From positions 8,866,001 through 8,930,000 of the forward strand of contig NC_135258.1 of assembly GCF_964204865.1 (NCBI RefSeq): 64,000 bases of DNA, read 5' to 3'. This DNA is from Styela clava (lineage: Eukaryota). Shown one piece after another: positions 3,001-53,339 of this stretch. The notes under the pieces were generated by a model that saw only the letters and a list, made by a program, of their open reading frames with translations, was not told where the DNA came from and ran no database searches. The position numbers and the translations under genes were made by a program. The first letter of the stretch is position 1; each line of letters starts with the position of its first letter.

Positions 3001-6000
3001 ATGAAGGGTGACCAGGTTATGGCGACTTTACTTCCGCGATTAGACAGCTCAGTGTCAAGTGATGCAAATGTTTCTGGTGATCATTATTAGATTGTTTAAA
3101 TAACTAATCCTAACTAATACCCCCAAGAAGTTAAGTGTAAAAGTGTGGTTTGTGCCAAGATTTCTTCGGTCTATTTGCGGCAAATGAGGGCATGCTATTG
3201 CAAAATTTAACTAAACATATACTTGAGCCAATCGCTATTTCACGAAAATTCATAAGTCTCAAAGATATAATATAATTGAGCGTGTAACGCACGCCCTATT
3301 CGCTATAAGTAATTGATTGGTTATTAATTTTTTCAAACTTTAGTAAGACTGAAAACACAGTATCATATTCACGTTTTAGTAGATATGAACTTGCGGAATC
3401 GACCTTGAAAGATCAGTTTATTGCTGGATATTAACTGAAAAACCTGCGGCAAAAAGGCAAGATCACAGATTCAATTTATTCAAAAGATGTTCTCAACTGT
3501 TTCACATTATACAACAAGAAAAAATAATACATCAGAACAAACTTTCACCACAACTGTGGGTATGCGAAATGCTTCAACAACACTCAGTTGTAGTATTTGT
3601 TCTTTTTTAGGCTTATGTGGATATCCACAATCTTCTAAAATGCTGGGCATATATATGGTATACATATTAAACCTGTTCAGTATTTGTTAGTTGGGTGATC
3701 TAGTAGAGCAATGTGTTGCATTTATATGACTTTATGCGCGCAAAGGGGGACATTCAATGAAAAAGCAGAGACGAAAACCTTCAACTGGATCTTGATTTGC
3801 TGACTGCACCATCAGAATAGGTTTTTTGTAGAACTTTTCCCAATTTATTTAGTGACTGTGTGTGTGTGTGCTGTACTTATACTACAAGTGGTGTTTAGAA
3901 AAGAGAGATTAAATTTAACAACTGCTATCACAGTTATAAGTAGTTATTGTGAGTGAAGACTATGCATTGTGCCTTGACTGCATATTTAGTAAGATACATC
4001 GGGCGACAGAGTGTTGTTGTAACTCTTCGATTTTTCGATCATATAGAAGTTCCCTTAATGAGTACAGCTGGACTGCTACGCATACGCGTCATCTTTACTT
4101 CAGTGACATCTAGCGGCCAGTTGATTTTGATTTCTAGACCCATTTTGATGTGTAATGTCTGTATCGTACAAGTCCTATTCATTTTTCTCGTGAAAATATC
4201 ATATATAAAAACTTTTAGGAGTCCAAAAAGGAGATGCCACAAAGTATAAATTGGAAAACCTTACCGATTTTATTAGATTATGAACATGGATTGAAACAAC
4301 TTCATTCGAGTTCTTCCGTTCAACCCACTATATCATTTCAGAATCTTGTAAAACGGGCCGCATCTTTATTTAAGATACCCTAGTAGTTTCAGACAGGTAA
4401 AAAAAAATGTTTCCATTTTTATTGATTTTACGGTGTGTTAGGGGTACTTGCAGACATGGTGATTTAAAACGCATAGATTTCTAAAGAAAAATGCTATTCA
4501 AATTTATTGTCACACCAACTTTAAACAAATTCAGTGAGAAACATGTTTTTATAACATTGTAAACTTGGCAACAGGATTTTGCTAGCTAGTTTCGCTTATA
4601 TGACAGTGGCACTCAGATTCCACAGTTTGCACACGCCTGGTCTAACGTATAAAAAAACAATAACGAGTTCGCTGACTATCACGGCATTCCAAGAACACCC
4701 AACACTAGATTTAAACGACCAATCGAAAACATGCTAACATAATTTTGTTAATTTACCAATTAAGCATTTTGAAAAAGAGGTAAAAAAAAATTGAAGACAT
4801 CTCTGAAATGCTAGTAAACAATACTTAACATTGAAATTACACGGGAATGGAAATGAGCTAAGTTTTACTCAACTAGGCCTTTTTTTCCCTGAACGTGTCT
4901 GTATATTCCTAACTAAAACCGTTGATGACAAGTAAATCAGTGAAAGTATGTACACTGTCATTGGTAAATAAAAATGCATAATCAAAACATATTTTTTCTT
5001 AATCTTGAATTTTTGAAGTCTTTCTGACAACGCAATTCGATACTCATTTAAAAATGTTAATTCACGTGAAGATGGGAACCGGTCCTTACGTTTTAAATGC
5101 GTGCAAATTGTTAGTTAAGAATGCTGCAAACTGCAACATACCAATGACATACATACTACTTTATGACGCGAGGAACTTACGGCTGGATTAGTTACGTGAT
5201 GAAAATAAAGCGGAATATTTACATACTGGTGATTGCTTTGCTGTTTTCGTTTTGTCGACTGAAACTTGAATGCCCTTACGCATTTGCGGTAAGGAGAAAA
5301 GGTCTGGAGTATAGAGTACGATATATATTCGCTTTAGCTGAGATGAGCTCTCCATTTTAGGTAATATTGCTTTCGCAATTCCCTTTTTGAGTTATTTTGT
5401 TTTATATTTCGTCCAACTATTTGTACAACTCAGTGAAATACATTATACAACCTTTATATAAAGGTGACATAAAGGGTATCATATTACAACATTTGTACCA
5501 ATAATAGAAACAAGCATCTACGTATCAGTTAATTTCACTTTGGTATTTTAGCTCTATGAAAGCCAAAAGAGTAAATTGATCAAACTATTTGATTTTTGCC
5601 GCCCACGAGAACGTTTCGGGATCACGACTCACGAGCTGGGCGATTCATTATCGTGATATGGTCCGGTAAACATTTAGTGGATTTTAAAACACTTTGTATC
5701 CAAGCTTTTGTTTGATTAAGTACGATGTTTCCATCCTCTACAAATCACCCGGGTGTGACGGCAATAATACCCATGAATTCAATGCGAACCTGCTTGCAGT
5801 CACGTAGAAAAATCGGAGACAAATAGTATATACCCCTTTTATTTGTTACAGAGTCATAAACATGAGTACCGTTCGTTTGGTCAGTGGTGCTTGTTGACAA
5901 TGTGCGCGTAACAAAAGTAAACAATTTTTCTCAGTAAACATGATTGCACTCGAATGTATATGTAATGTGCGGGCAGGTTATGTATGAGTATTGGATTCAG

Positions 6001-6647
6001 TTTATATTAATTGAGGTGCTGAAAGAGATATTACTTCAAGCAACTAATCGATTTCTCCTAGTAGTAGTATATTCAGTACTATATGTGTTAAGTTAATTTG
6101 AAATTTAAGAGTAATACAAATTTCATATGTAATATAAATTTCAAAGCAATATCACTAAATAGTCAGAGGAATAAAATTCGAATTCTTATTTTCAAGTCAA
6201 AAATCGCCGAGACATACATTCCATGTACATTACTAGAGGTGTATATCCTCGTAAGGGACGGGACAAGTGTTGATGGAAAACTACTTGTGCACATAAATGC
6301 CCTGAGGGAAATATGCTTCTATCCTTTATCTCGATGCCTCACGTGACTATTGATGACATTATCTGTACGTGATCAAGTGTGAATCATTTGGTCACACGTT
6401 TAACTTAAAAACAAGTCGCTAATATAAGTTTTGTATAACACAGGATACACACAGAGCACGAATATATAAAGCACAAACAATGCTTGCATTGCATTTATTT
6501 TTATAAATTTCATCGTTTCGCTAACATCTGTTTTAGTCTATATATCGTCGACGAAAGATACTTGTTTACAAGCATATAGGTTTTTTTATTAGGTGAAAAG
6601 TGAATTTTTTATAACACTTCACAGAAAGTATATTCTAAAATTCAATC

Positions 6648-9600
6648 ATGGGAAAAATTGTTTCATTTGGATTTGTATTTTCTGACAACAAGACAGTATA
6701 CTTTCCAGGCGATTTTGTAAGTGGACATCTTGTCGTGGATATTCTCCGACCGATGAAAATTAAGGGTGAGAATATTTAATGGTATTTGTAGGGCATTTAC
6801 GTTTGATTTGTCAAAATCAGAAAAGAAATATTTTCATGTACGGAAATTTTTAATGAGTAGGCCTAGTTTGTCTAACACATGTTACTATTTTTTGTTTTCT
6901 TATTTATAAGTTTTTGTTTCACCCCGAAAAAGAAACTTCTGAATGAGCTAATATTGGCTTATGGCTTATGGCCCTGTGCATTAGATCATAGGTTCTCAAA
7001 GTGCTCCGTACGGAGCCCCAGGGCTCCGCGAGAGAAACCCAGGGGCTCCGCGAGCTATTCGATTACTTTTCAAAATACTGACTAATTTTGTAACTGTTCA
7101 AAGAAGCAATAACAGCTTTGATAAAATCTGACAACAATATAGCCTCGAAATATGGCACAGAGGCGGAATTTAAAAATGACATTATTTATAAGCAGGAGCG
7201 CAGCCAGGATTCTTAAGAGGGAGGTGGTTCAAAATTAGAATCGAAAAACGGATAACGGGATTTCTGTTGCGTAAAATATTCAATCCATGACCGATGCCAG
7301 CATTTAAAGTGTCTCGTCGTTATAATGTAATTGTGTTCATCTTTACTCACCTTTGATTCGAAATTACTATTAGGATTACTAAAATGAAAGAATACTATTC
7401 TAAAATAACATAAAATATGTGATAAACTGCCAACTATAAATAAATTGGAGTCGTATTTTTGCGATCTTGGGGTTTGTCAAACTTGATTTGTTCTTTCGCA
7501 CTTGAGAATATATTTAAGCAAGATATCGCCGTTTAAAAAATCACAATGTCTGGGCAAAATACGAACAATTGAAATCTATTTTATTGCATTCGGCTCCATC
7601 GGTAGTTTTAGAATGAAAATGGTACATCGCGGATCGCGCGCACAATTGATTGCGAGCGGTTCCGTCGGCAGTTTCAAAATGGGGAAAAAAAATACATCGC
7701 ACGCACAATTGACTGTGTTTCGATTTTGCAGTTACTACGATGAAAATCTAACATAACAGCAAATTTTGTGATTTACAATGTCTATAAAAGCGTTTTCAAT
7801 CTACGGTGAGTCTGCTGAAACCAAACGTGTGATCTTCCATTTTAAGTTTTAGTTTTAATATTTTAGAATGCCGCTTTTCAATCAAGAAATTTGAGTTGCG
7901 GATCTACCTCTTCATTAATTATTATTTTTAGCAGTTCGTCGCCGATGACTATAAAATGGTAACATATTTTTCACATTGAACTCATAATTCCCCACGAGAA
8001 CAAAAAAGCAATTAACGTCGTCATTGTGTAACAATACATGTATATGCCGAGGGAATTTTTGATATAGGGAGAATAAACAACGGCGTAAAGATGTAGGTTC
8101 AAAAACACGCCGCCATGCTGAGGAAAAAAATCGGCGATTGTAACAAAATGCAATCTCGCACATTATTAGCGGCATTTTGGGTCTTCCAAAAATGTCAAAA
8201 GGGAGAAGATTCGACCCCTAATTTATTAGTATGTTTGTCAAGTGTCAAATTTACAGCTTTAGTATATATAATTTATGTTTGAAATTTAGATTTATTTATA
8301 ACTTGTATTAACCCTATCAAAAAAGGTTCAGCATTTAAATTGAGTAAAGTACTTTTAACTTGCTCAGGAATATTAATCAGAAAGTAACAATTTTAACATT
8401 TATTTTGGGGCTCCGTGAGTAATAGTCAACAATTTCAAGGGCTCCGCGACACCAAAAGTTTGAGAACCCCTGCATTAGATAATACTATTTGTACAAATCT
8501 AAATTTTTTGGCAATGCCCAAGTAGCTTATGATACCCCGAATAAGATAGATAGGGCTGTGGTAGGATATAACCCTTGGAATCTGAAACGACACGTAGCCA
8601 TTCTCGTCAAGCAATACTGGCATTTGTGCATGTTTAGAATAATAAAGTCGCATATCAGTTTCTTCGTTAATAAATTATCTCTTCATGTATTTTTGTCTAG
8701 AAATCAAAATAAGATTTTTCGGCAAAGCTCTTGTTCGTTGGAAAACTACAGAGATGGTGAATGTTTCCAATCTGCACGAAAGCATACATGCCAGCCAAAC
8801 AAATAGGCAATCTGTTACTAGAAATTACTCCGCTACACAAAACCTTTTTAACCAACATATGTTGTTGTATGGAAGAGGTGGGTATTATAAAACGCCTTTT
8901 TAAGTTTGTTTAGTAGTTTGATTTTGGTTTGATCAATCTGGATATGAAATGTTTGTCAAATTTTAAACCCTACAATTCAACCAATTAATAAAGCAATATT
9001 ATTAAGAAACGAAAAATAAATCGGAGATTGGGTAGGTCGAGACTATGATTTTTTTTGTGTGTTATTTCATCATTGAGTAATTATGTTGTTGCAGAAGTGA
9101 ATGGCGAACATAGCTTACCACAGGGACAGACTATTTTACCATTTGAATGCCAACTGCCACATCCTCTACCGTCATCGTTTGAAGGTAAATCTTCACTGAT
9201 TTGCATGAAAATAGACTCGACTTGAAAATCAGTTAGATTACGCAAAGATTAACTACATACCATTCCTCTATGCATTTTTTGATTCCGCATGCGTAAAATT
9301 CAGGAACACTGTAACAAGAATAAATTTGGCTAATTCATGTGATTCTGATAGAATACTTTCAATACAGTCATTTACTAATTATGTTTGATGAATTTATATT
9401 TCTTATAATATTTATATTATATATATTATTTATTATAAATACTTGATTGGCAATTGAATGTTATCGCCAGCATTATTTTATCCTTATGCCTAGAATATTC
9501 AATTTTATATAGATAATATTTAACACGCAAAATTTGTTTCAAATTTAAAAATACATTCCTATAGATAAACCTATTATGGTGAAACCAAAGTAACTAAATA

Positions 9601-12600
9601 GTATCAAAAACTCTGAAACCATTCATAACTAAGTCCTGCTTTCGTTCGATTTCTGTTACGTTTCGCAAAATTTTCATTTTTTGATATTAAATGTTTCATT
9701 GATAGCATTGAGTAATTCACTTTCAATTTGTAAGGGAAATTATGCTACAGAGAAACATGTTGAGATTAGGGTTGTTCAATACATATTGGTTTCAAAATAT
9801 TAAAGTGTTGGATATTCTATACTGTATTATAATTTTTCTAATCTTGCTTGTATAAAATATGACATAACAAACCATTTTTACACTCGCATTATTAGATTAC
9901 AGTTGCTCATTTTGTAAGAAATTGTGACAGATGAGCAAATTTGAAATTTTAAAACAATTATATATATATCTAACTACAATACAATAAGCAATATTATGTA
10001 ATATATATATATATGAGACTTGATTTGAGTTTTTTTTTATATTTTAGGAGAATTCGGATACATACGATACTCTGTTAAAGCAACAATAGTTAGAGAATGG
10101 AGGCTCGATTGTACAACGAAAAAATCTTTTACAGTTCTTGATAGTCTTGATCTAAATCGTATACAAGATATTACGGTCAGTATTTGATATTCGAGCCTTT
10201 GAACTATTTTAGTTATGTCACGTTATTTTCGATTTTATATTATATTACATTAGAATATTATAATTCCCTCTCACGTTTGATAGTCTGGTTATAAGAATGT
10301 TTTTGAGTGATTAAATATGTCCATGAAATAAAAGAGTATGAATGTTTGAAGAGACCAAATCAAACCAAATCTCACTTAACTGTACAAATTACCAACGGAA
10401 AATAATGTTAAACTTCATTTTTATGCAGCGTTTTCGAAGTTTTTTTTATCCGAAAAAGACGTTGTTCAAGCAGCCACCGATTCGTATTATTTTTGCAAGA
10501 CTGGTATTTTCGAGATTTGAAATTGTCAGCAAATTATGCGAAAATATTTTGTGCCCATTTATTCCGTTTTTTAAATCCTAGATCCATTGAGTTTAAAATA
10601 CCTCATTTTTTATTGTTCATATCAGAATCCGTCACAAAATTATGATTCACAGTCAATAGCGTGTTCGTGCTCAAGAAGTGGAATAATTGAAGTTGATTTT
10701 TCTTCAGACAGAACTGGTTACGTGCCAGGCGAATATATAAAAATAAATGCTAATATTTCTAATTCAAGGTAACCTAAAATCTTACGTTGAATATCCCTAA
10801 TTTAGATTACCTGATGATTTTCTATATTCCATACCTCGATGTAGAACTTTTAAAGGACAGTGTAATATACCATACAATCACATTCACAGTGTATGCCATA
10901 TGCTGAAGTTTGTTTAATTTTTTATTTATAAATAATTCTTTGCTTTTCGAATTGGTCGGTACATGGTTTACCATATGAACCTTTTCTCTCAAATCTGTCA
11001 TATTATTTGTTAGCTGTACCTGCCGCCATGAGATGTCTCATTTTCATCCCACTTGTCCCACACTTTTTGACTATTTTGAGTTCGGGTAGATATATATATT
11101 GTGAAGCAAATGGTTGAAGTAAGCATGTGAAATAGACTCATGCTGTGATTTGGAATGGATGTTGTAGCTTGGCAGAAGGCTTGGATATCAAATGAAGTGA
11201 GATTCGTCAGAAAGTGGGGATTAAGTTGGACAAGCTACACACGACCTTTTTTAGAACCCCCTATTCTACGGTGTCTTGCAAATTTCAAGCACAAAATTAT
11301 ACCATAGAATCACATTAAATAGAAATGTTCACAGCCAAGCACTCGAATACCATCAATGATTATTTATCTTTATTGTGATTCCTTATAGCTGTATATATGT
11401 ATAAAGGATTACTGTTTTAACGGGAATGATGTCTTGCGTTGTCTTAGACTTGTCAAAAAACCTACATTCAACTTTGAATCTCAGATAAATACTTCCTTTG
11501 TTAACAGTAACAGCAGAGTCAAATCAAGCTCAGTCAAACTTCTACAGACAGTGACGTTTTATGCTTCATCAAAAACACGGAGAAAAACTTACGTTATAAA
11601 TGATGTGACTGGTCCTTCAGTTCCAAAGCGTAAAACATTCAATTGGGCAGACGCAGTTCTTCACATACCTCCTCTTCCTCCGTCAGAATCTAGAAATTGC
11701 AGAATTATCGATATCGACTATTCGTTAGTTGTAAGCATTGTTGATGATTAAAATGCCGTATGGCTATTGAGGTTCTTCAATATAAATATTTGATTACGTT
11801 AAACAAGAGAGCAGTGCTTAAATATATAGTAACAAAGGCCAAACGAAGTGGTATGCATATCCAATGTTATACATAAGACTACTGTACCGTAGTCTTCCCG
11901 ACTTAGCAACGCCACAAGGTGTGCAATTTTTAATTTGATGACGTCATCGCACACAAAAAACGGATCTTGCAGACCCCACAGACATTTTTGAAGAAAAATA
12001 TAGCTTCCTAGCGACAACAGTCTTCAACAAATCTTCAATTTTGAAGCAATTGGTTAAGTAATCAAAAAGGAAATCAAATGTTTCGCGACGACAAAAAAAA
12101 TAATACCAACAAGAACAACAACATAATAACCAAACCTCACATAGAAAAATTTCGTTTCCGATAGAGATTTGGCCTAATTTGACCATGAAACACAAAATAA
12201 ATTAAATTCATAGAAGTTTCTATTATAATAAACAAAAATTTTTATTTTTCTGCAGTTCCATGCTAGACTCCGAGACTTCACACCAGATATTCGCATGTTT
12301 GTTCCAATCATACTAGGAACGGTGCCAATCGATAGTCTTGAAATGTACAGTAGAACAACATTAAATGGATATACAATGTCTTCAGTCATTCCGAGTGCCC
12401 CCACAAGAGATGCGATTTCAGCTGAAAACTCTGATCCTCCTCCAAACTATACGTCTCAGAGTAAGCTGAATTTGATAGTCTAGTTGGTCCCCCCTACTTA
12501 CTCGTTCTATGTTTGTGTCTGCTATCTAATTAACATACTTTATTACTTCAGAAAGTAGCGGTCTAATTACTCATAGCTTCGGTGTAGAAGTATATTTATC

Positions 12601-13098
12601 GCATAGTTATTGGGATATCAAGTTTGACCAAGATTCATTTCGCTTCATTTTTATTCCATAGTATTATATCCCGATGTATTCTATCCTATATTAACGTCAA
12701 ATTTAGAAAACGAATCATCGTTTATAAATAGTACAGATTTAGGACTATTAAATACATATAACTTTTTTTGTTGATATCATTTTCAATATGTTTTTATTTT
12801 GTATTTTGCCTAAATCTTGAGATTGCGTGTCACCAGCCATCGCTAATGAGTAGTAACATGTCACACCATCCTGCAAATATATATAATCACATGATACATC
12901 ATATTCCACAAAAAATGCATTAAAATTTACTTAACAGTTTCCTTTTTCACAGTGCCACCACCGCCATCGTATGCTGCTGCCACTGGGTCAATACCTATTT
13001 TAAGGGATGAAGAGGATGGCGAAGATGAACATTATAATGAAGAACACGAGGCATTTGCCCCCAGATACACATATTATGACTGGGATCATAATTCCTGA
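6648..13098 (+). CDS. ARRDC: Alpha-arrestin / arrestin domain-containing protein (ARRDC/TXNIP family), 8 coding exons
   Basis: Phase-consistent GT-AG exons: 6648-6765, 8701-8877, 9095-9184, 10048-10175, 10626-10768, 11508-11730, 12256-12460, 12953-13098. Arrestin_N motifs VYFPGDFVSG, FECQLPHPLPSSFEGEFGYIRYSVKA. Arrestin_C motifs DRTGYVPGE, IPPLPPS..NCRIIDIDY, PIILGTVP. C-terminal PPxY motifs PPNY and PPSY. Paralog number cannot be assigned. Confidence 0.93.
6987..8472. mobile_element. Non-autonomous hAT (Charlie-like) element in ARRDC intron 1
   Basis: TIRs CATAGGTTCTCAAA / TTTGAGAACCCCTG, perfect 8-bp TSD CATTAGAT (6979-6986 and 8473-8480), subterminal GGGCTCCG repeats. Confidence 0.85.
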
Positions 13099-13830
13099 GA
13101 AATCATCATAATATAAAATGTGATGTGGATGAGCCGAATGTGAAATGAAAAATCTAGAAACTCAACAAATAATCTGAATTGGCAAGCTGTTGAAGATGGC
13201 CAGAAAATATTCAAATAAATATGTATTTTAACATTCAATGCAACCTATATTTACTGTGCTTATTGTACTAAATGTTACGTATAAATGAAAGTGAAAAATT
13301 CAATTGAAACTGATTGATCATCGTTACAGTAATCTTTAACAAAGAAGTTCAAGAACAAGGAGTCTGTTTCATAGTGCGCTATTTTTTTAATTTAAAGATT
13401 TCTCGACAACCAATATGAAACAGTTATAATAAATGTTTCAAGCTTGGCGTTGTCATCAGTTACGAGTTGATCACGTGACCGAATCCTCATCATAAAGTTC
13501 AAACTGACATGCTCTAAAATTGTTCGAAAAAAAATGTAGTCATAACGATGTTTATCAAAATTTAAATCCCAATTCAAATGTAGCTACTCCATTGTCAAGT
13601 TCATCATCTGTCAGGGGATAGAAGTTGTTCGTCTTATAATACACTTTTTAAGTCTGTAACAATTCTCGGCAACTGATATATATATACTATATGTAAATCA
13701 ATTATGGGAAAGCTTATCGCAGTTTCTATTAGTAGAAAAGTCAGAAAATACGAGATTGGTTTCTTCGTGGAATGAGTTAATGCTGTAATCGGTTGTCAAT
13801 TTTGTGATATTGAATAATCTATTAAAAAGG

Positions 13831-14044
13831 GGTACTCCTGAAGTATGTGAACCGAGATGGTGGACAGGTTAGGGTCAGGCAATGGTTTTAATCTAATTTT
13901 CCGTATTTTAGTTCTATTACTAGTTTAGGGACTAGCCAAGTGACTCTCGTAGTAATTGTACCTGAGATTATTGCTTAACGATAACCTGGTACACATACTA
14001 CGTTCCGGTGTCCGCCATCTTGAATCGCATATTTCGGGAGTACC
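13831..14044. mobile_element. MITE with GG-initiated TIRs, same family as 20802-21037 in opposite orientation
   Basis: TIRs GGTACTCCTGAAGTATGTGAACCGAGATGG / CCATCTTGAATCGCATATTTCGGGAGTACC. The element is absent from the paralogous sequence near 16940. No clean TSD. Confidence 0.8.
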
Positions 14045-14083
14045 AAATAAATGCGATGAAAGGAATTTTAATTTATATAAAAC

Positions 14084-14135
14084 GTGGCAATTATGTGCGT
14101 TTCTCGAGTCACCATAAATGTAAGAGTTCATTTTC
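14084..14135 (+). promoter_or_regulatory. snRNA promoter, PSE-like element (GAGTCACCAYAAATG)
   Basis: TCACC core lies exactly 59 nt upstream of U4 +1 in three copies (14109/14168, 17003/17062, 17174/17233) and is also present at 14588. It is preceded by a conserved GTGGCAATTATG block. The position matches metazoan PSEs. Confidence 0.75.
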
Positions 14136-14167
14136 AATCCTATAAGAAATTTTCCCCTGGGATCGGT

Positions 14168-14309
14168 AGCTTTGCGCAGCGGCAGTATCGTAACCAATGA
14201 GGTTTATCCGAGGTGCGATTATTGCTAGTTGAAAACTATTACCAATACCCCGCCGTGGTGGCGCAAACGCGTCGCTTGTGGCAATTTCTGAAGGGTTGTA
14301 GGCAACCTG
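14168..14309 (+). ncRNA. U4: U4 spliceosomal snRNA, apparently intact
   Basis: AGCTTTGCGCAGCGGCAGTATCGTAACCAATGAGGTTTATCCGAGGTGCGATTATTGCTAGTTGAAAAC...CCAATACCCCGCCGTG closely matches the vertebrate U4 5' region. Sm site AATTTCTG at 14283, terminal hairpin GGGTTG-TAGG-CAACCT, length about 142 nt. Confidence 0.95.
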
Positions 14310-14642
14310 TACTGTTTGCAATTGTGGTTTTATTATTCGATCATTACCGTTGTTATCGCTACGCGAGTTGAGTTATGTCATACCCCTCCCCGTTATTAGC
14401 TGTTTATAAGCTCAACGCGAATCGACAACAACTTCATGACCTTCCAAAAATTGGTTTTCGTGGGGTACTAAAATCAGTTCCTGTTGTAATCGTCAGTTTT
14501 ATGGTTGATATTGGGTAATTTATTAAAATAATTCAATTGCGGGAATTTTAATTCACATTATTGTGGCAATTATGAGTGTTATTTGAGTCACCATAAATAC
14601 TAGGGTTTATTCATACTTTCATAAGAACATTTTTCTCTCTTC

Positions 14643-14751
14643 CGTAACCAATGAGGTTTATCCGAGGTGCGATTATTGCTAGTTGAAAACTATTACCCTG
14701 GTGATACAAACGCGTCGCCTGTGGCAATTTCTGAAGGTTTCTGCGAAACCT
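14643..14751 (+). pseudogene. U4: U4 snRNA pseudogene, about 21 nt missing at the 5' end plus an internal deletion
   Basis: CGTAACCAATGAGGTTTATCCGAGGTGCGATTATTGCTAGTTGAAAACTATTACC is identical to the intact copy. Sm site and terminal hairpin are retained, and a PSE-like block lies upstream. Confidence 0.85.
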
Positions 14752-14887
14752 ATCCTTTTACAAAATTGAGTTGCGACCAGCAGTATAGGTTGTACTAATC
14801 TATAAAGGTCCGCGAATTTACAAAACCTAACCTTCGATGTGAGCACGAGGCAGACGTTTATTTGTTCTTTTCTCGAGCTATGCAAAG

Positions 14888-15052
14888 CCAGTCAGTCAGT
14901 CAATCGTTTATTTGTCGTCACAAAAAAACAAATGCACAAAGATTGTTACAGAAAATATATAAAGCAGTAACGTTAATTGTGCGACAGGGGTCGAGAGGAA
15001 GCTCCTTAGGTCTTCAAGTAGCGACACCTATGGTATTGTTACTGGTTCAGTG
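14888..15052 (-). mobile_element. 3' end of an L2/CR1-type LINE or derived SINE
   Basis: Short tetranucleotide tail (CAGT)n next to CGTTTATT, and similarity to 26038-26206 (GACAGG.GTCG.GAGG...GGTCTTC.AG.AGCGACACC...CTGGTTCAG). Family assignment is inference. Confidence 0.5.
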
Positions 15053-15880
15053 TAAAAAATACAGACATTGACTATGCAATAGCCATGAGTGTGAACATAT
15101 CTTGACTATACCTCCAATATTTTGGGAACTTGAGAGCGAGCGCAACATTGGTAAGATATCTAATAAAATCAGTAAAAGCTATTACTAGATTGTTAACGGC
15201 TAAACTTCATAACATCTCTGTACGTGTTCACACAACTGGCGTGAGGAATTTGAAGTAATTGAATGTATGTTCCTGGTTCAGCATTGCTCGAATGAAATAA
15301 ATATAACCACTAAGCATATAGTAAATAAGATAACTTTAGATAAATTTTTATCACGCGACTAACTGTTCATCTCGACCTTGCTCCAACACGAATTGAAATA
15401 TTGATTCATCGTTACAGTAAAAAAACGCAAAGACAATTTAACTCAAAACAAAAAATGTTATATTAACATGTGTGAGGTAATGTCTGATTAAATCCTATTT
15501 ATGAATATTTAGGCGTGGAGAGTTTTAATGACACGACACGATAGTTCAGGTTTACTCGTTTCTTACTTTACCAACGATTACTGGTGGACTTGAGGAGGAA
15601 GGAAGGAAGTGAGAAGGAACACGAACGTATGGATAAATGGAATATTTGATAAATCGTTTCTGTGTTGAAATATTCACCAACGCTAATAACCTACTGATAA
15701 ATCACCAAAAGGACTTCTCGCATGTAGAATATTTTTATTTAAAAATTCTACTTGCCCGACAACAATTGTACATTTATCAATTATGGGAAAGCTTATTGCA
15801 AATTCTATTATTAGAAAGGTTAAAACATTTTTTGGCAAATTTTTCTCAATACTATTGCTAACCAAGCTATTTGTCTAGTT

Positions 15881-16677
15881 CAGTGGTTTTCAACCTTTTA
15901 CTGACCACTTTAATGTTTTTTTACTCTGGCCGCGTACCACTGAAAAAGCCATTTTTGGCGCGGAGAACAATGGCACAAGACACGCGCTATGGAAGTATTT
16001 CATAACGTGGCACAAGGACCTAATTCGCAGGACGGACGAAAACATGCCCATCTCAATCCGTTCGTGGACAATAGCAGGCGAGGGCGATCTCTAAAGACTG
16101 GACTGATTCATAAGACGTTTCCCCGACCCTTGACCCCAGAAAAAATCTTCCTATACTTCACTATTGCAAATTTTTTTTTCTTATTTTGAGAGTGTTTTGA
16201 TGTGTTGGCGCTTATAAACTGGTTTACGTGTTTGAAAGCCTTCTTTTTTATTAAAATTAATCAACCATGTGCCGCTTACAGGCACTGATAGTTTAGTTTA
16301 TATTAGTCTATCGCAGCATTTGCGAGACTCATTTTTTATTACCAAAACTAAATTAATGCTCCTTCGAAAACATAATTTGACAATTAAGATATTTAATTCA
16401 CTATTTTTTTTTTGAAACGCAACTGAAAACTGACAAATAACACGCAAAACTACAAAAACGAGGCAATGTTTACTGGTTGTTGCTGGTTACGGAATTGAAC
16501 AAGGAAATTCATGCACGGAGGAACATTCATAAAGGTCGTTCAGCAAATACAATCAGTATAGTAGATAAAGCGTTGTCGGCATATTTTGGCCAACTCAAAA
16601 GTTAATTGTTGCAATAATTCAAAGCTGCTCGCGTACCCCTTGATCAACTTCCGCGTACCACAAGTTGAGAACCACTG
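15881..16677. mobile_element. Non-autonomous hAT element
   Basis: TIRs CAGTGGTTTTCAAC / GTTGAGAACCACTG, perfect 8-bp TSD GTCTAGTT (15873-15880 and 16678-16685). Confidence 0.88.
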
Positions 16678-17061
16678 GTCTAGTTGAACGGATTTTCAAT
16701 TTTACTTTGAGTTTGTCATCATTCGAAGTGAATATGAAATCAAATTGCTTTAAGTCTAAATGACATCTTGATCAGTATTTTTCTATCTTCTGTTTCCAGC
16801 TTATTATACTCTGATGCTAATCGGAAACAACTCCATGATCTTCCTGAAATTCAAAATACGATTGGTTTCTTTGTGGTGGGCTTGAATGAGTTCATGCTGT
16901 AATCTGTTGTCAATTTTGTGATATTAAATAATTTATTACAAAAGGCGATTGTGGGAATTTTAATTTATATCAAAACGTGACAATTATGTGCGTTTTTTCG
17001 AGTCACCACAAATGATGGAGTTCATTTTCACTCCTTTAAAGCTTTTTCCTTCAAAATCGAT

Positions 17062-17074
17062 AGCTTTGCGCAGT
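17062..17074 (+). pseudogene. U4: U4 snRNA relic: promoter plus first 13 nt only
   Basis: AGCTTTGCGCAGT lies 59 nt downstream of a PSE-like TCACC, then similarity ends. Confidence 0.7.
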
Positions 17075-17232
17075 TGAAGTTTTATGAATGATATTGGATA
17101 ACTTTTTAAAAAAGGGAGAACACATGAATTTTAGTTTATATAAATATGTGGCAATTATGTGCGTATTCTCGAGTCACCACAAATGGTAGAATTCATTTTA
17201 AGTACTATAGGAACTTTTCCTCCTGAATCGGT

Positions 17233-17307
17233 AGCTTTGCGCAGTGGCAGTATCGTAACCAATGAGGTTTAATGAGGAAAAAAAAAAAAAAAAACCAATG
17301 AGGTTTA
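17233..17307 (+). pseudogene. U4: U4 snRNA gene interrupted after nt 39 by retrotransposon insertion(s)
   Basis: U4 nt 1-39 (17233-17271), then ATGAGG + A17, then a repeat of (AA)CCAATGAGGTTTA, then the LINE 5' UTR. Confidence 0.9.
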
Positions 17308-17428
17308 TTGGTGTAATTGGCTGTATCGAGCTAGTTGTTTGATTAAGATGAACATTTGCTATTGTTATTATCTATTGGAACACTTTGGATTGTAAACTAT
17401 ATGGAATATACATTCGTGGATACTAAAA

Positions 17429-18848
17429 ATGGATTACTCCGCAGCTCTTACAGGATCAATGGGGATTACAGGTAATCGCCCTCGATCGGTTGTCACAGAG
17501 GTGAGTGATTCGGTTCCATTACATTTGAACCCACGTACATTTGAACCCATGACAATTGCACCTGTATGCTATTGCACCTATGGATTTTTTTTTGGTTCAC
17601 GGATAGTTAAACCCATACTAACCCTAACCCATGGGTTTTAGCACCCGCATATAGATTGAACCCGTGGATATACGCATGTGTTCAAATGTACGTGGGTTCA
17701 AATGTACGGTCACCGAGTGATTCTATTGATATAAACCGATTTCTCTACATCTTGGGAGAAAACCTTGTAACAAAAAGATATGTCGAACAACTGTCAGGAA
17801 TTTTTGAAACTAGGCCGAAAATTTGGTTGATATCTTTCAAACAGTTGAATCCAACAAATCCAAGTGATTCAGTTAGAGACAAATTTATTGTAGAAACGCA
17901 AAATGGCATTAACGTAGATGATACAATAGTACGCTTTTTTCTACCCACAAAACCTTCAACAAGAATCAGCATTCGCGATGTGCCAGACGAATCACGACCA
18001 CAAGTCGTCCTTGAAGCTCTGAACAAGGCTGAATGCGGAAAAATTAAAAGCATGACCAAACTATACTACCGAAACACTCAACTATTCAACGGATATATAG
18101 CTGTATGGATAGATGGTTTTAAACAGAAAAAATTGCCCCCCTTTCTTGTCATTGACAAAGCTAGGTGCAAAGCCTACGTATCCACCGAGCTGTACAATCC
18201 AACGTGCATGAACTGTCTTAATCCTGGTCATAATGCAAGAAATTGCCGAAATAAAACAAAAATGTAGATCATGCAAAAGTGCCACGTTCAGGCAAATTGC
18301 CCCCTAAAATCCAAGGTAAGACCGAATAATATGGAATCGTGGCTTAAGGAATCAATATCTACAAAACCTGGGATAGTATCATATGTAGAAGAAAAAAAGA
18401 CGCAGCACCAAACAATAACACCATACCAGAAATAGGAGATAATCAAATTGCAGAGGCAGTGCTCCCAACTTCTCACTTCGACACAATACCTGATACGGAT
18501 TTGTTATACGAAGAAGTAAAAGATTGGTTTCTATCAAAAGACAATAGGATAACAACACCCCAAAAGCGCACGTCACCTCGCAAAACAGTACCGAAACATA
18601 AATTAAAACCTACATCTACAATAGGGAACACTCCAATTGGACCCCCAGTAATTGGCAAATCGTATATAAACATGGTAATTAACGACCTAGAGAATCCAAA
18701 TAGCACGTATGAAACTGACCCATCACAAACACTCACACTTGAGCCTACTATTAGCAAAACCGAAAAACAGATTGGAAAACGGGAAAGAGAAAATACCTCT
18801 TCGTCGACAACATCGATAATATCACCCTCACCAAGACCCAACATATGA
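17429..18848 (+). pseudogene. LINE ORF1 (gag-like CCHC zinc-knuckle protein), disrupted
   Basis: ORF fragments 17429-17641, 17656-18267 and 18459-18848. The first two join in frame once the 17512-17714 MITE and one TSD copy are removed. Confidence 0.8.
17512..17714. mobile_element. MITE inserted in LINE ORF1
   Basis: About 35-bp TIRs GGTTCCATTACATTTGAACCCACGTACATTTGAAC / GTTCAAATGTACGTGGGTTCAAATGTACGGTCACC, 9-bp TSD GAGTGATTC, internal CTAACCCTAACCC. Confidence 0.88.
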
Positions 18849-20801
18849 CTGAAACTCCATCACAATTAAAAATAATCTCACTGAACGTAAACGGACTAGA
18901 AAAAAATTGGAAAAAACTAAAAATCTTCATAACTTACCACAACCCAGACATTATTGCTTTACAAGAAGTCCACAGAGTTAAAAGCAACGTTTTCGAGAAA
19001 CGACTTAAAACATGGGGTACAGATTATTTATTAACTCACTGACCGACTTCGATAAAAGGGATGACCAAAGATTCTTCCAAGGCACCGCCACTGCAGTAAG
19101 AGAAAACCTATGTGCAACGCACAGCCTTGAATATGTAATATTCATACCTTGTAAAGCGTGATCGACATCAATGACGAACTTACAAACCAAAGACAAGCTA
19201 TCTCTAGTAAATGTTTATGCACCTCCCAGAAGAGGCGACAGAAAAACTAGAATGTTCTGCAAAAAGCTGATAAACTTTGTGAGAGAGATCAAGCATATTC
19301 CAATTTAACATGGTTCACCAAAAATAGACGTCAGCAACGAAAACTCATTTACACTAGGGAACCCAGAAAGAAAATGGAAAGACTTTATACAAGCTTACAA
19401 CTACATAGACACCTATAGATATCACTGGCCCGATAAAAGATTATATACAATTACCAGGAGGAGACAATCCCGACGAATAGATCGAATATATATTCCGTAC
19501 AACATTAGTCATGAATTAAAAAATACAGAATATTTAGTAAACACCGTTTCAGACCACCACTTGGCATCGCATATCACTTTCAAAAATATTAAGCAAGTTA
19601 AATGGGGATGGGGAACCTAGAAAAACAATACTGCTCATTTTAAGAATGAAAAAGTCAGATTTTTGATAAAAGAGATATACAAAAAAGAAAAACAGTTCAA
19701 CATCAAACCAAGAAATATATTTACTCAATAAAAACCTGCAGCAAGTAGAAAAAAAAAGTGACGTTCAAACAAAAAACAGCAAAAATCAAAGCATTAGAAC
19801 AAAACGAAAGACCAACTAAATATTTCTTTGACAAATTGAAAACTAGAAGACGGAAAACTACTATAGACAGCCTCCAAAACAAAGAAGGAAAGTATTTGAA
19901 AACAAAAAATGAAATACTGGATGAAGCGCAAAAATTTTACCAAACATTATGGAAACAAACGTAAGTAGGGGAGGAAAAAAGAATGGGGGAGTATCTCAAA
20001 ATATATGGAGAAACCATGCTTAGCACTGAGGAAAAAGAAGGAAGAACTATTCAGAACACTGAAACAAATGGACAATTTCAAAACTCCGGGACCAGATGGG
20101 TTATCAAAGGAATTTTACCTTGAATTCTGGGAAATTCTAAAGAATGACCTGCACCAGCTAGTAAACAATGCTATCGCTTTCGACACATTACCCAAAAGTA
20201 GCAAAGAATCGATAGTCACCCTTATCTTTAAAAAAGGAAACTCAAATCACCTAGCAAATTACCGGCCCATATCAAACTTAAATGTAGATTTTAAACTGAT
20301 ATCAAAAATAATAGCTAACCGATTGAAACTTATCTTGGATAAATATATAATGCCAACACAAAAAAGCGCGATTCCCAACCGATCCATATTTGATAGCTTA
20401 CGAAATATTCAAGAAATATGGAATTATACAACAAAATGGAACCTACCTTTATATATAATCAGTTTCGATCAGGAAAAAGCTTTTAATATGGTTAACCAAC
20501 GTTTTTTATTCAAAACCATGACTAAACTAAACTTCAACAAAAATATTATTAAGTTAATCAAAGAAATGTACAATTGTATATACAGCAGAATACAAATTAA
20601 CGGAGCTAAAACCAATAAAATCTTTTTGACCAGGGGAATTAGACAAGGCTGTCCTGCCCATTGAGCATGGCAATGTACACCTTAGCCATGACCCATTGGC
20701 AAGAAAAATCATCGCGAACCAAAAGATAAAAGGATTCAGTATCGGGAAATACAAAACCGTAATTGATCAATTTAGAGACGACAATACAACATACGCGCGA
20801 G
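18845..20801 (+). pseudogene. LINE ORF2 (AP endonuclease + reverse transcriptase), disrupted and truncated
   Basis: ORF fragments 18845-19042, 19758-19964 and 20005-20664 carry EN and RT motifs. Homology ends just after the catalytic-site motif. Confidence 0.9.
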
Positions 20802-21037
20802 GGGGCTTCCGAAGTATGCGAACCAAGATGGCGGACATCGTAATGTAACATGTGTACTAGGTTAGGTTTAGGCCATAATTTTAGGTATGAATACTACGGG
20901 AGGCTCTTGGCTAGTCTTCGAACTGATAATAGGACTAAAATAAGGAAAATTGGAAAAAAATTATCGCCTAACCCTAACCTGTTACCCATGTTACGTTCCG
21001 ATGTCCGCCATCTTGGTTCGCATACTTCGGGAGCACC
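20802..21037. mobile_element. MITE with GG-initiated TIRs and 8-bp TSD (Merlin-like signature)
   Basis: TIRs of 40 bp or more, GGGGCTTCCGAAGTATGCGAACCAAGATGGCGGACATCG / CGATGTCCGCCATCTTGGTTCGCATACTTCGGGAGCACC. TSD CGCGCGAG (20794-20801 and 21038-21045). Confidence 0.88.
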
Positions 21038-21472
21038 CGCGCGAGACATTTGGAATATTTGATAAATCGTTTGCGTGTTGGAATATTTACTATGACTAAT
21101 AACCTACTGACAAATCACCAAAAAGATTTCTCGCTTATAGAATATTTTATTCAAAAATTCGACTTGCCCGACAATTTCTTCTCACAATTGTACATTTGCA
21201 ACAAAATCAAAATTACAACTCAATGTTACTTTCGCAAAGTTTCGAAGTCACGATGAAGCGAATTTATGCCACGGCATACGATTTATTTCGTTGTTTATTC
21301 ATTTTTTGTTCCAAGCTTAACCGGTGCAAAAATTCCCGTATGAATACAATTATATATCAGAATTGGGATCAACAAAAATACTTTGTTGACATAAATCAAT
21401 GTTTGTCTCTTTTCATATACATAAGCAGAGCTTTTAGTGATGGTAGCAAAATAGGAGAATGGTTTAATTTGA

Positions 21473-24324
21473 TTATTTGCAAATGTATTTAGGAACCAAT
21501 CTATCACACTTGCACTCCAAGCCATTGATTGACACACAATCACACCTGCTTTGTCTCACTTTGATCAACTTTGTTCTGTAACCGCGACCGCAACATAGAT
21601 GCTCACAACTTCCGGGTCCAGTTCTGGTTACGTTACATTCTCTAGAACGTGTCCCGACAATACCAGCTTCTACATTTTCAATACAATAATCAGGAGATGC
21701 TGAGAGATACACAAGTTGGGAATTGTTGAGTGATATTTCTACCTCCCCGTGAAAAATTTCACGACCGGAAATCTCTATTTTGCATCCAACAAGATTTTAA
21801 GCCATTGTCTTTTCCATAATACCTGCACATTCGTTTTGATGTCTTCACCACTGTCTGTACAGAAAAATGAAGTTTTGTTCATCACATTTATATTTAATAA
21901 GTTCAAAGAATGAAATATTATCTTGTTAAAATTTGATAAAAATTAAGTAATTCAGTATTTATATGAAAAACATTTCAGAAGATCAGAGTTCTGTTTAAAA
22001 TTCGTTACAATTAACTTTTAATTTTCAAAATCCTATTGAATAAAAAGAGTAAAGAGCGTCTCACCAGTCTTCCTACTTTATTGTTATGAGCAAACATCAA
22101 TTGCTTTGGGTCAAGTTCTCGCATCTTTCTTTTTCCATCGAGAAAATATTTTACCAAATTGCTCACAAATCCGCTATATGAAGCGTATGTAGTCTACAAA
22201 AAATAAAATTTATGATAAGCTTATATAATTTTCAAAGTACAATAGGTGCAATTAGACTTGTGAAAATAAACACAATACCTTGGGGTACATTTTTCTTTTG
22301 AGTCGAATGAAATGTAAATTTTAACAAAAATTAAATATGATTTCAGGACGCCTATAATATTCATGTTGAAGGGAAATTTTCAATAATGAATCCGAGAACC
22401 TTGTTTTACCAAATATGCAACATTAGGGTGTAGCAATCAATTGTACCCAGCATTCGAAATTATATGCTATGGAAGTAATTTTATTTTTAACGTAATAATC
22501 ATAATCGATCACAATTGATATGATCCGTTTTCAAAAGATGTACAGTTTTATTAATTGATAACAATATGTTATATCATCCTCAAATATCTTACCAAATTTC
22601 CAGTGTAATTTGCAATTTCCGAATGCGGACAAAATTTGTTGTAAGGAAGAAGAAAGTCCTCACATGCCCTTGAAATAGAATGCACAACGCCAGCAGCAGT
22701 TATTGCTTGAGCGAATGCCATTTCTCTTGTACCTAAATAGAATGTTCACTAAATTTCAGAGTGACAACCAAATCACTTAAATGTCTCAGAGATCCACACA
22801 CTACAAATCCAAAACTCTACTGATATTAAATAAATATGATCTGGTGGTGGCTGTGGTGTCTAACGATGAACAATAACTCATTTAATCCTGAAGATATTAA
22901 TAAGATGATGAGCCTTTGAGTACGATGATACATGATTTGTAGCAAACATTGAATGCACCGTCTACTGTTCGAGCAAAATGCATTCAGCATTGATTATTGA
23001 AAAAGCAATACGACGAGTTACCAGGATCTAATACGCAATCAAACCTTAAGATTTTAAATAAAGAAAAGCAAAAAAAAGAGGAAAATATTTTACGCGAATC
23101 TGCGAATGTTCCAAAAATTGCTTTGTTCTTCACTGACGGACACTTCCAGCGATTGTTACGGAATTGATATTGACATTCAGAAATTCCGTTTCTCGCTCCC
23201 TCGCTTACATATTTCATGAGGGGTTTTCTTTTTCGCACCATTTTCTTTGATAGTTGGTAAATCTATCCATTAGATGACAATTTGGAACATCACTTTTCAG
23301 CATATCGTAAACAGAATCTTGAGCCACAGACCTGTACAAAGCAATGTATTATTGAAAAATTAGAAATCGAACAAAATGACATTAAAAATCGGATGTATTC
23401 CGTCGTATGGAGTTTATTTCCAATCACATAGAATTTAGAAGGAATTATAATTACTTCGAATAAGATCTTGCATTGTCAATAATAGGATTCATTATCCAAA
23501 ATTTAAAACAAAGGAAGAAACGCTCTATTTTTTTGTTATTATTGGACATGTTTAGTGGACATACGATCATTTCAATATTTTGTTGTTGTTCTTGTTAATT
23601 TTCGTCTTCATCATTATAAAATCGCTTTTCTATTCGACTACTGGACCAATTGCTTTGAAATTTTCAGTGAGTAAAGATTATATTTTTCGTTAGAAGGCTA
23701 TTACTTTCATTTATCGTTTTTGTGTGCTATGACGCCAACAAAATTTGCCAATATGTGGCGCAACGTGTCCATATATTTGAGCTCTGCTCTCTTGTTTGAT
23801 ATGTTATTAGACCCACAGAGTAGAGTGCGACATGCATGTTTCCCAACCGGGCAGGAATAACTCCTCATTTGCCATTGTTGTGGAGGAATTGTGTTTTGTA
23901 TTTGCTGTGGTATCATTGGTTTTCTTCAGTTCATAATTAATATAATATTTATGCCCACATTATAAACTACTTAAATTTTACAAAGGCAACTTGCGTACAA
24001 CCCTAGCTTAATACCCATTAATAATTGAATAAATGAATATTTTTATGTAGTGTGAGGGAGAAATAACAATTTAAAAGCAGGAGAAATTTGACAATAAAGG
24101 TCGGAAAGCACTGCGGTAATGCTATCCAAAATGAATAAATGTTTAATTATATATATATCATTTAGTATTAAATAGATTTTTGTCGGCGGTATTTTCAAAT
24201 ATAATACAGTTATTTGTCCATGAAAAAAAGCTTACCACCAACGGTCGTACACTCCGCTGCTCAAAATCAGGGGGAAGATGAGAACACATAGCAGGAAAAA
24301 ATAATTTTTGTTGGAATTTCCCAT
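21473..24324 (-). pseudogene. Wnt: Divergent Wnt-family gene copy A, 5 exons, two frameshifts
   Basis: Exons 24324-24236 (signal peptide ...YDRWW), 23331-23094 (ECQYQFRNNRWKC), 22732-22593 (TREMAFAQAITAAGVVHSISRAC), 22193-22065 (HNNKVGR), 21854-21473 (SPDYC...CCGRGY). Exon 2 is 238 nt against 239 nt in copy C (1-nt loss near 23225). Exon 5 has a frameshifting deletion near 21765. Confidence 0.85.
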
Positions 24325-38789: not shown

Positions 38790-39404
38790 CAGGGGTGGCC
38801 AACAAGTCGATCGCCATCGCCACGTCTCGAGTAGTCGATCGCCTCTGATGTTGAGTGAATGTCATAACATAACCCAAATATAACCAGTTTCATGCAGCGT
38901 CTGTTGTGCGCTTTAAAACAGGAGAAATACAACATACGGTATTTGAGGTATTATTACGTAACAAATGCAAGTTTCGCTGCTGCGAAGGTTTATAGCCTGC
39001 ATGCGCAAAATACCATGAACACAAATATTGAAACATTTACTCTGGGTACAATTACATATTCATAAACCGCTTGAACCCTGTAAGCCGTCTTTTCAGAGAA
39101 CGCTTTTTCACGTGGCAAACCGGTTTTCCGTATTGCTCCTCGTTTCAGAAGCAATCAATTTTATGCTCTCATATCTCAGAGACGTCAGGGTTCAAAGAAA
39201 TTTTTGCGGCTATTTTGTTAACAATGCGGCTCTGTGAGCTTATTGGCAGCGATGGAAGTTGTGTAAGCGTGTGTTACTGTTCAGTTATCTGCATAATCGA
39301 TGGGTCTACTCGTTCGTTATCGTGTATGACCTTATTACCTATCAGTCGATCGCGAGCTACTTTGGAGGTTTCAGTCGATTGCGGAAGCAGGTTGACCACC
39401 CCTA
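38790..39404. mobile_element. Non-autonomous hAT element
   Basis: TIRs CAGGGGTGGCCAAC / GTTGACCACCCCTA, TSD CCATATGA / CCATATGG, subterminal GTCGATCGC repeats. Confidence 0.82.
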
Positions 39405-42304: not shown

Positions 42305-42312
42305 TATAAAAA
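42305..42312 (+). promoter_or_regulatory. TATA box of the peptide gene
   Basis: TATAAAAA about 30 nt before a probable short non-coding exon that ends at a GTGAGA donor (42368). AP-1-type TGAGTCA at 42034. Confidence 0.55.
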
Positions 42313-42678
42313 GGGTGAATAAACATCTTTAGCATCACTTCACTTTACGAAGACGAAGAAGATTCGGGTGAGATTTTTGAAAATTCGTATTTTCTATGTA
42401 ATAATTTCTATGTGAGTTTATCATTGTTTTTACCTTTGTTAACACGAATCTTACAAACAGCCATCACAATAAAGAATTTCAAATTCGAATTTATTTTTCT
42501 GTTTTTATCACGAAGTCCGTAATATTCCGAGTTGTTTTTAATTGGAATTCGTTTTACTTCCAAAAATTAACAAGGATTATTTTCTAAGAGCCAAACAAAC
42601 CTTGCTTTTTCGAGTTTAATTATCTAAAACGAAAATTCTTATTTAATTTAATATCATTCAATTTCAGAAAACAAAATC

Positions 42679-53104: not shown

Positions 53105-53326
53105 GCAAACTGAGCGGAAAAACGAAAATGTATGATGACCACGACAGGCGAAGTGGTACTCCGATGCGTTTTATGCCTAAACAATCTGAGCAACCATGCT
53201 ATGAGACCAACACTCTTGCCCCATCACAAAAACATTTTTTCGAAGCAAAAAGAAGGGGGGCGCGAAGTTTGTAAAATTTTTCAAAGGTGGGGGGGGGGGT
53301 GGCTCAAAAAGTTTAAAAACCACTGC
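53105..53326 (+). mobile_element. hAT Buster/Charlie deletion derivative with a BED-finger remnant
   Basis: Translation RCVLCLNNLSNHAMRPTLL resembles the Buster-type N-terminal motif CVxCxxxLSNxxMKPSKL. Ends in hAT-like AAAGTTTAAAAACCACTG. Left end not located. Confidence 0.55.
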
Positions 53327-53339
53327 TCTATAGCTTCAT

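What the first reader, a model, noticed from the sequence alone, without database searches (positions are those of the whole stretch)
17257..17307. Second insertion at the same U4 site: poly(A) micro-insertion with a 13-15 bp TSD
Seen: AACCAATGAGGTTTA - ATGAGG - A-run - AACCAATGAGGTTTA - LINE, with 17 consecutive A in total. This looks like target-primed reverse transcription that copied little beyond a poly(A) tail and duplicated U4 nt 25/27-39. Inference: two events at one position support target specificity and predict nicks near nt 25-27 (bottom strand) and nt 39 (top strand).
Basis: partly seen in the sequence, partly recalled or inferred. Interest (0 to 1): 0.7.

Follow-up and report, generated by a model that had tools for sequence, protein, structure and literature searches.

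The report
Aborted retrotransposon re-insertion in U4 gene
A short run of A bases flanked by a duplicated target sits inside a U4 splicing-RNA gene, at the spot where a family of jumping genes has inserted repeatedly in this genome; it is likely the footprint of an aborted second insertion, a known kind of event, by a U4-targeting family that I did not find described.

Summary
Observation confirmed base for base. The order is U4 nt 1-39, six bases copying U4 nt 30-35, a 17-A run, U4 nt 25-39 again, 18 extra bases, then an old, broken L1/Tx1-like LINE.

The genome holds 8 young full-length relatives with poly(A) tails. Five lie in U4 genes after nt 39, three of them as a tandem stack joined by poly(A) plus U4 27-39. 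Three lie elsewhere yet start with U4 nt 2/3-39, so the element is likely transcribed from U4 promoters. Two off-target sites resemble U4 around the nt 24/25 step, favouring a 15-bp duplication; three C4 events give 12 bp. Two more micro-insertions sit at this site in other U4 genes, one with a sister family's tail.

Best reading: a poly(A)-only, aborted re-insertion into the retained upstream half-site (0.6). An off-target copy carries a similar poly(A) stutter, so one integration episode may leave both (0.22). Reads across the A-run were not examined.

Solitary poly(A) inserts and tandem re-insertion are known. U4 as a target was not found in five paper searches, but this scan noted U4-associated LINEs in two other genomes.

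The parts
17126..17232 (+). upstream (promoter-side) region of the split U4 gene
   Evidence: 17126-17271 is 87.7% identical to 14063-14206, the upstream region and start of the intact U4
17233..17271 (+). U4 snRNA nt 1-39, 5' half of the split gene
   Evidence: 38/39 to the intact U4; no difference from the commonest allele
17257..17271 (+). first copy of the duplicated target (U4 nt 25-39)
   Evidence: sequence
17272..17277 (+). six junction bases copying U4 nt 30-35; likely templated during joining
   Evidence: P = 0.014 for a random 6-mer to lie in U4 1-39 on either strand; absent from the family 3' end
17278..17292 (+). poly(A) insert, 15 A (run of 17 to 17294 including two target A)
17293..17307 (+). 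second copy of the duplicated target (U4 nt 25-39; 13 bp unambiguous, 15 bp favoured)
   Evidence: 15/15 identical; register from off-target sites
17308..17325 (+). 18 extra bases before the family's usual 5' end; templated junction patch or an older 5' end
   Evidence: absent from 8 of 8 young copies; 10/11 match to U4 nt 13-23 with the first three LINE bases, P = 0.003, or P = 0.15 without them; present in an X1 contig
17326..20800 (+). old, broken L1/Tx1-like LINE: first ~3.58 kb of a ~5.15 kb element; 3' end and downstream U4 half not found in the window
   Evidence: 87-91% blastn identity to young copies; 8.3-8.8% substitutions; 14 indels, 3 in-frame stops; EN and RT Pfam hits
17503..17714 (.). 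212-bp high-copy element nested in ORF1
   Evidence: contigs of X1, X2 and X5 skip these 212 bases, with 9 bases fitting either side; depth far above the flanks
20796..21043 (.). palindromic repeat at which the LINE match ends
   Evidence: self inverted match; end of the LINE alignment
14168..14306 (+). intact U4 gene, the empty-site reference
   Evidence: Rfam RF00015, 120.9 bits

Best explanation
The 36 added bases lie at the U4 site used by a LINE family of this genome and are likely the footprint of a second, aborted target-primed reverse transcription that copied only a poly(A) tail. Shown: an APE-endonuclease LINE family sits after U4 nt 39 in several U4 genes, ends in poly(A), stacks in tandem with U4 27-39 between copies, and its off-target copies begin with U4 nt 2/3-39. 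Inferred: (1) the element is transcribed from the host U4 promoter; (2) its endonuclease reads DNA around U4 nt 15-40 and nicks the bottom strand at the T/A step between nt 24 and 25, leaving two T to pair with poly(A); (3) after the old LINE inserted, the upstream half-site (nt 1-39) stayed whole and was cut again; (4) synthesis stopped after about 15 nt, and the end was joined at nt 39 after a false start that copied nt 30-35. The donor RNA cannot be named; it may have been this family or any polyadenylated RNA handled by its protein.
For: Tandem stack of three full-length copies in one U4 gene at C10:7.40 Mb, joined by poly(A)+U4 27-39. The three differ by 0.55-0.86%, and the first shares 10 variants with the C9 copy, so they come from different source elements. 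Two stand-alone micro-insertions at the same site in C4 U4 genes: one with a ~25-nt sister-family tail plus poly(A), one decayed A-rich insert of 29 nt with a degenerate duplicate. Genome-wide, poly(A) followed within 10-18 nt by U4 nt 40-50 occurs at 5 places, control 0. Off-target sites match U4 nt 15-39 in the 24/25 register at 12/25 (C9) and 11/25 (C3), joint P = 0.015 against random T/A steps; C3 also has a 10/12 match to U4 29-40, P = 0.002. Precedent: tandem R1 arrays form by insertion into the duplicate at the 5' end of resident R1 (PMC2718515, passages); solitary poly(A) tracts are a recognised class of severely truncated L1 events (bioRxiv 2024.08.27.596794, passages).
Against: The off-target C3 copy has poly(A)-duplicate-poly(A)-duplicate on its 3' side; two independent hits on one off-target site are improbable, so one episode can probably leave such a stutter. 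The two events cannot be dated apart: most of the LINE's divergence arose under selection (pN/pS 0.24-0.40), so post-insertion decay is only a few percent by my rough estimate, and an unmutated junction proves little. The window copy lacks its 3' junction. Three C4 events resume at nt 28, which a 24/25 nick does not explain. The third off-target copy (C10:16.89 Mb) shows no duplication. No U4 was found in the 20 loci of other fragments and relatives scanned, so specificity is not strict. The decayed C4 insert differs from U4 at about 7 of 27 duplicate positions and is only probable.
Confidence: 0.6

Rival explanations
1. One integration episode with re-priming. After copying the LINE, the enzyme jumps to the top-strand overhang and copies the duplicate, which recreates its primer; it then starts again on a poly(A) tail, aborts and joins. 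Both duplicates and the A-run would be the same age.
For: The C3 off-target copy has two poly(A) tracts and three copies of its duplicate (15 bp left, 18 bp middle and right), hard to get from independent events at a non-U4 site. R2 proteins jump templates and snap back at 5' junctions (PMC11371274, passages). Both window junctions carry locally templated bases.
Against: In C3 the stutter is on the side made first (abort, then restart); in the window it is on the side made last and needs a second free poly(A) tail. Stand-alone micro-insertions and a stack from different sources show that separate events at U4 do occur.
Confidence: 0.22
2. Single insertion of a read-through transcript from a tandem stack. 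Reverse transcription ran through one element and the duplicate and stopped in the upstream neighbour's poly(A), so A-run plus second duplicate were imported from another locus.
For: Tandem stacks with this junction exist, and the family carries 5' flanking sequence to new sites (3 of 3 off-target copies). Drosophila R1 shows such 5' carry-over and rearranged junctions (PMC2718515, passages and section 14).
Against: 2 of 2 inner junctions of the stack are precise, without the 18 bases. No other copy with those 18 bases appeared among the 46 matches (40 of 98 candidates scored). Synthesis would have to stop in a 15-45 nt stretch after more than 5 kb.
Confidence: 0.1
4. Assembly artefact: a chimeric path between this locus and the tandem stack.
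For: The A-run was not checked in reads; the listed X2 pieces do not cover 17308-17323.
Against: The six junction bases occur in none of the three stack junctions; locus-specific upstream sequence runs cleanly into U4; the downstream junction is in an X1 contig with 0 differences.
Confidence: 0.03

Closest known systems
Keno (Tx1-clade, APE-type, U2 snRNA-specific; PMC4494074, PMC4640811 and PMC6136364, passages)
   Same: APE endonuclease plus RT, insertion at one site near nt 37-40 of a spliceosomal snRNA gene, low copy number.
   Different: The target here is U4 nt 39/40, not U2. PMC4640811 lists only U2 (Keno, Utopia), U1 and U6 (Dada) as snRNA targets; the PMC4494074 Fig. 3 legend adds U5. 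Relationship to Keno was not tested by tree.
R1 of Drosophila (PMC2718515, passages and section 14)
   Same: APE-type site-specific element with ~14-bp duplications, tandem arrays by re-insertion into the 5' duplicate, off-target copies at target-like sites, upstream target sequence carried at 5' ends.
   Different: R1 targets 28S rDNA and is a separate clade; poly(A)-only footprints were not mentioned in the passages seen.
Solitary poly(A) insertions of L1 (bioRxiv 2024.08.27.596794, passages)
   Same: A poly(A) tract as the only product of a severely 5'-truncated event.
   Different: Those are scattered somatic human events; here the tract is at a fixed multicopy target, directly upstream of a resident element.
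Tandem SINEU-3 insertions of crocodilians (PMC4494074, passages)
   Same: Sequential insertions sandwiching one duplicate, driven by a Tx1-type element.
   Different: The target is a Mariner element and the inserted unit is a whole SINE.

Membership tests
Target-specific APE-type non-LTR retrotransposon (Tx1-like) | N-terminal apurinic-like endonuclease and RT in ORF2 | tested here: met
   Intact copy: Pfam Exo_endo_phos 49.5 bits, RVT_1 107.9 bits; best PDB match human L1 ORF2p, E 9e-71
Target-specific APE-type non-LTR retrotransposon (Tx1-like) | One sequence type in more than 20% of flanks (criterion in PMC4494074) | tested here: met
   6 of 9 copies with a 5' end lie in U4 genes after nt 39; no U4 in 20 loci of other fragments and relatives
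Tx1 clade | ORF1 with zinc knuckle (recalled as typical, not from a call) | tested here: met
   zf-CCHC 21.4 bits, cut-off 20.8
Tx1 clade | RT groups with named Tx1 references | not testable with these tools
   No curated references on hand; the tree (70 sequences) groups it with own-genome sisters and unnamed proteins; one automatic 'TX1' name at 29% identity
Keno | Insertion in U2 snRNA about nt 37 | tested here: not met
   Target is U4
Solitary poly(A) TPRT insertion | Pure A tract between duplicated target copies, absent from empty sites | tested here: met
   88 of 93 U4 5'-half hits run straight into nt 40
Solitary poly(A) TPRT insertion | Left edge of the duplicate at the element's nick site | tested here: inconclusive
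   Fits the C10 stack and two off-target sites; three C4 events resume at nt 28; no biochemical test
Solitary poly(A) TPRT insertion | Structure present in raw reads | not tested
   One search covered only 17308-17900
R1-type tandem re-insertion | Later copy enters the 5' duplicate of the resident copy | tested here: inconclusive
   The stack exists and comes from different sources, but 12 private variants in each of its three copies give no order

The most novel reading that the evidence does not exclude
A LINE family that rides the U4 promoter, carries U4 1-39 as its RNA leader and re-primes within one integration episode, leaving poly(A)+duplicate stutters on either side of the insert; its protein also delivers sister-family RNA ends to U4. 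It belongs to a local radiation with a shared 3' motif that has retargeted to U4, tRNA, histone H3 and other gene arrays, a natural series for how APE endonucleases change targets.
Probability: 0.3. Interest if true: 0.7.

Novelty: new member of a known kind. Interest (0 to 1): 0.48.

Why it matters
The micro-insertion is a known kind of product, but because it holds no element sequence it marks both cut positions more directly than full-length copies, whose U4 leader hides the upper cut. With the off-target sites it gives a testable cleavage map (bottom 24/25, top about 38-41) for an apparently recently active, sequence-specific LINE with near-intact copies. U4 as a target was not found in the papers searched. 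Site-specific retrotransposons are of interest for targeted gene insertion and for how elements persist in small multicopy gene families.

Tried and rejected
Family 3' tail as source of the six bases: rejected, 8 of 8 tails end in a different motif before poly(A).

The 12-mer tail pattern was not specific (14 matches, 17 control) and was not used.

The nt-36 mismatch between the two duplicates of copy C4a as proof of leader-derived 5' junctions: inconclusive, because its upstream and downstream flanks resemble different unit classes, so flank exchange explains it as well.

Dating the insert against the LINE: no power.

Reads: no RNA holder listed. X22 raw reads were too shallow (about 6 in 100 read, no coverage of 17308-17327). 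The 29 unshown letters left of the X1 contig fit both the presence and the absence of the insert. The A-run and upstream half remain unexamined in reads.

A U4 3' half for the window copy was not found in the window, by the poly(A)-anchored patterns or in the 10 kb after the window.

Tx1 placement by tree failed for lack of named references.

Paper searches for a U4 target gave none. Kojima and Fujiwara 2004 and Repbase were not available, and no supplements were opened; either could list a U4 family.

Full report
Observation. Rfam finds an intact U4 at 14168-14306 and a defective one at 14626-14748. A third U4 starts at 17233 and breaks after nt 39. It is followed by six bases equal to U4 nt 30-35, a run of exactly 17 A (17278-17294), U4 nt 25-39 again (17293-17307), 18 extra bases, and from 17326 a LINE. 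The LINE is old and broken: 8.3-8.8% from young copies, 14 indels and 3 stops, a 212-bp nested element, and no 3' end beyond about 20800. Earlier scan notes call the host a sea squirt (not checked here).

The family. Searches of the own genome gave 8 young full-length copies of about 5.15 kb, 0.55-1.5% apart. An intact copy has a 440-aa ORF1 with a zinc knuckle and a 1172-aa ORF2 with APE endonuclease and RT, closest among solved structures to human L1 ORF2p. All 8 end in the same motif plus poly(A), with no trace of the six bases. Five lie in U4 genes directly after nt 39: three stacked in one gene at C10:7.40 Mb, each junction being poly(A)+U4 27-39 (the two preceding A are ambiguous), and two single copies in the C4 cluster whose 3' side resumes at nt 28. 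In 200 kb of the two clusters plus the window, 88 of 93 U4 5'-half hits run straight into nt 40 and 5 do not (the count is approximate for degenerate units). Twenty loci of other fragments and relatives held no U4, so the preference is strong but not strict.

U4 leader. The three young copies outside U4 genes begin with U4 sequence back to nt 2, 3 and 3, in unrelated flanks. On-target copies keep locus-specific upstream sequence. I infer transcription from the host U4 promoter, with nt 1-39 as RNA leader. This matters for the finding: in full-length on-target copies the 5' duplicate may come from the leader, and such annealed junctions do not reveal the upper cut (PMC11371274, passages). A test using the nt-36 polymorphism was inconclusive. 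No RNA holder was listed.

Cut sites. Two off-target copies have true duplicates, 11 bp (C9) and 15-18 bp (C3); the third has none. Both start at a T/A step and match U4 nt 15-39 in the 24/25 register at 12/25 and 11/25 (joint P = 0.015 against 9,764 random T/A steps); C3 also matches U4 29-40 at 10/12, one base out of register (P = 0.002). This favours a bottom nick at 24/25 and a 15-bp duplicate in the window, and recognition that extends upstream of the nick, so the upstream half-site should remain a target after insertion. Against a single fixed nick, three C4 events resume at nt 28; this is unexplained.

Other micro-insertions. Poly(A) followed within 10-18 nt by U4 nt 40-50 occurs at 5 places genome-wide, control 0. 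Three are ends of full elements. One (C4:20,152,495) is about 25 nt of tail plus poly(A) after U4 nt 26, without a duplicate; its tail resembles the 3' end of sister families, not this one, suggesting delivery of a foreign RNA. One (C4:20,153,150) is a 29-nt A-rich insert with a degenerate duplicate, probable only. The off-target C3 copy has a second poly(A) tract and a third duplicate on its 3' side.

Mechanism. The best reading (0.6) is an aborted, poly(A)-only re-insertion upstream of the resident LINE. Separate events at an occupied U4 site are indicated by the stack, whose first copy shares 10 variants with the C9 copy and differs from its neighbours by 0.85-0.86%, and by the stand-alone micro-insertions. 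The six bases are probably templated from the target (P = 0.014). The 18 bases match U4 13-23 at 10/11 only if the first three LINE bases are counted (P = 0.003, or 0.15 without), so they may instead be an older 5' end. The main rival (0.22) is re-priming in one episode, prompted by C3. Read-through from a stack (0.1), repair without RT (0.05) and artefact (0.03) follow. Age cannot separate them, since pN/pS of 0.24-0.40 shows that most divergence predates insertion.

Reads. Only 17308-17900 was laid. An X1 contig matches 17308-17434 with 0 differences at depth 217 against 2,367 for the young-family contig; X1 may be the assembly's own sample. The listed pieces of X2 show only the young form. 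X5, under another organism label, holds family pieces without the nested element. The A-run is unverified.

Known and new. Tandem R1 arrays arise by insertion into the 5' duplicate, and some R1 carry upstream target sequence to target-like off-target sites (PMC2718515, passages and section 14). Solitary poly(A) tracts are a recognised L1 product (bioRxiv 2024.08.27.596794, passages). Known snRNA targets in the papers read are U2, U1, U6 and U5 (PMC4640811, PMC8869645 and PMC6136364, passages; PMC4494074, passages and section 15). Five searches found no U4 target; Repbase, Kojima and Fujiwara 2004 and supplements were not seen. The scan's unchecked notes report U4-associated LINEs in two other genomes, by their wording at a different position, and Keno copies that borrow the U2 promoter. 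Tx1 membership is likely but untested.

Verdict. A real feature in the assembly and an ordinary kind of product, informative for the cut sites of a new U4-targeting member of a known class. Interest 0.48.

Noticed in passing
L135:4141-8160 (C8, 7.83 Mb); also L057, L058: Closest sister family (61% ORF2 identity; sister in the tree): one copy's poly(A) ends about 19 nt before a histone H3 start codon, and three C8 loci have histone stem-loops nearby. Candidate histone-targeting family.
   Followed up: partly
L099-L103, L142 (C2, 15.9 Mb): A more distant relative (36% ORF2) with the same 3' motif sits in a tRNA gene array, its poly(A) followed by what looks like a tRNA 3' half in the copies viewed.
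   Followed up: partly
genome-wide; L139-L141: The 3' motif plus poly(A) has 162 overlapping matches (control 1), clustered on C4, C6 and C8; several are followed by one repeated sequence, possibly the spliced-leader arrays of note e1-9363206. Suggests a radiation of site-specific families with a shared tail.
   Followed up: partly
L136-L138 (C5, 7.92-7.95 Mb): Copies of another relative (34% ORF2) repeated at 6-9 kb spacing; target not identified.
   Followed up: partly
L040:6532-6620 (C3): Off-target copy with a second poly(A) tract and three copies of its duplicate; 2.1 kb downstream lies another tail of a different family.
   Followed up: yes
window 14626-14748 and 17062-17073: Two more damaged U4 units: one lacks nt 1-21 and 10 internal bases; one keeps only nt 1-12 behind a U4-type upstream region.
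   Followed up: no
window 21473-21796 and 22984-23262, minus strand: Exons of a Wnt-family gene next to the U4 cluster.
   Followed up: no
window 44710-50731: Tandem duplication of about 2.7 kb at 95.6% identity, with older related copies from 39,400 to 54,500.
   Followed up: no
window 63222-63433: About 200 bp of low-complexity A-rich sequence near the window end, possibly poor assembly.
   Followed up: no
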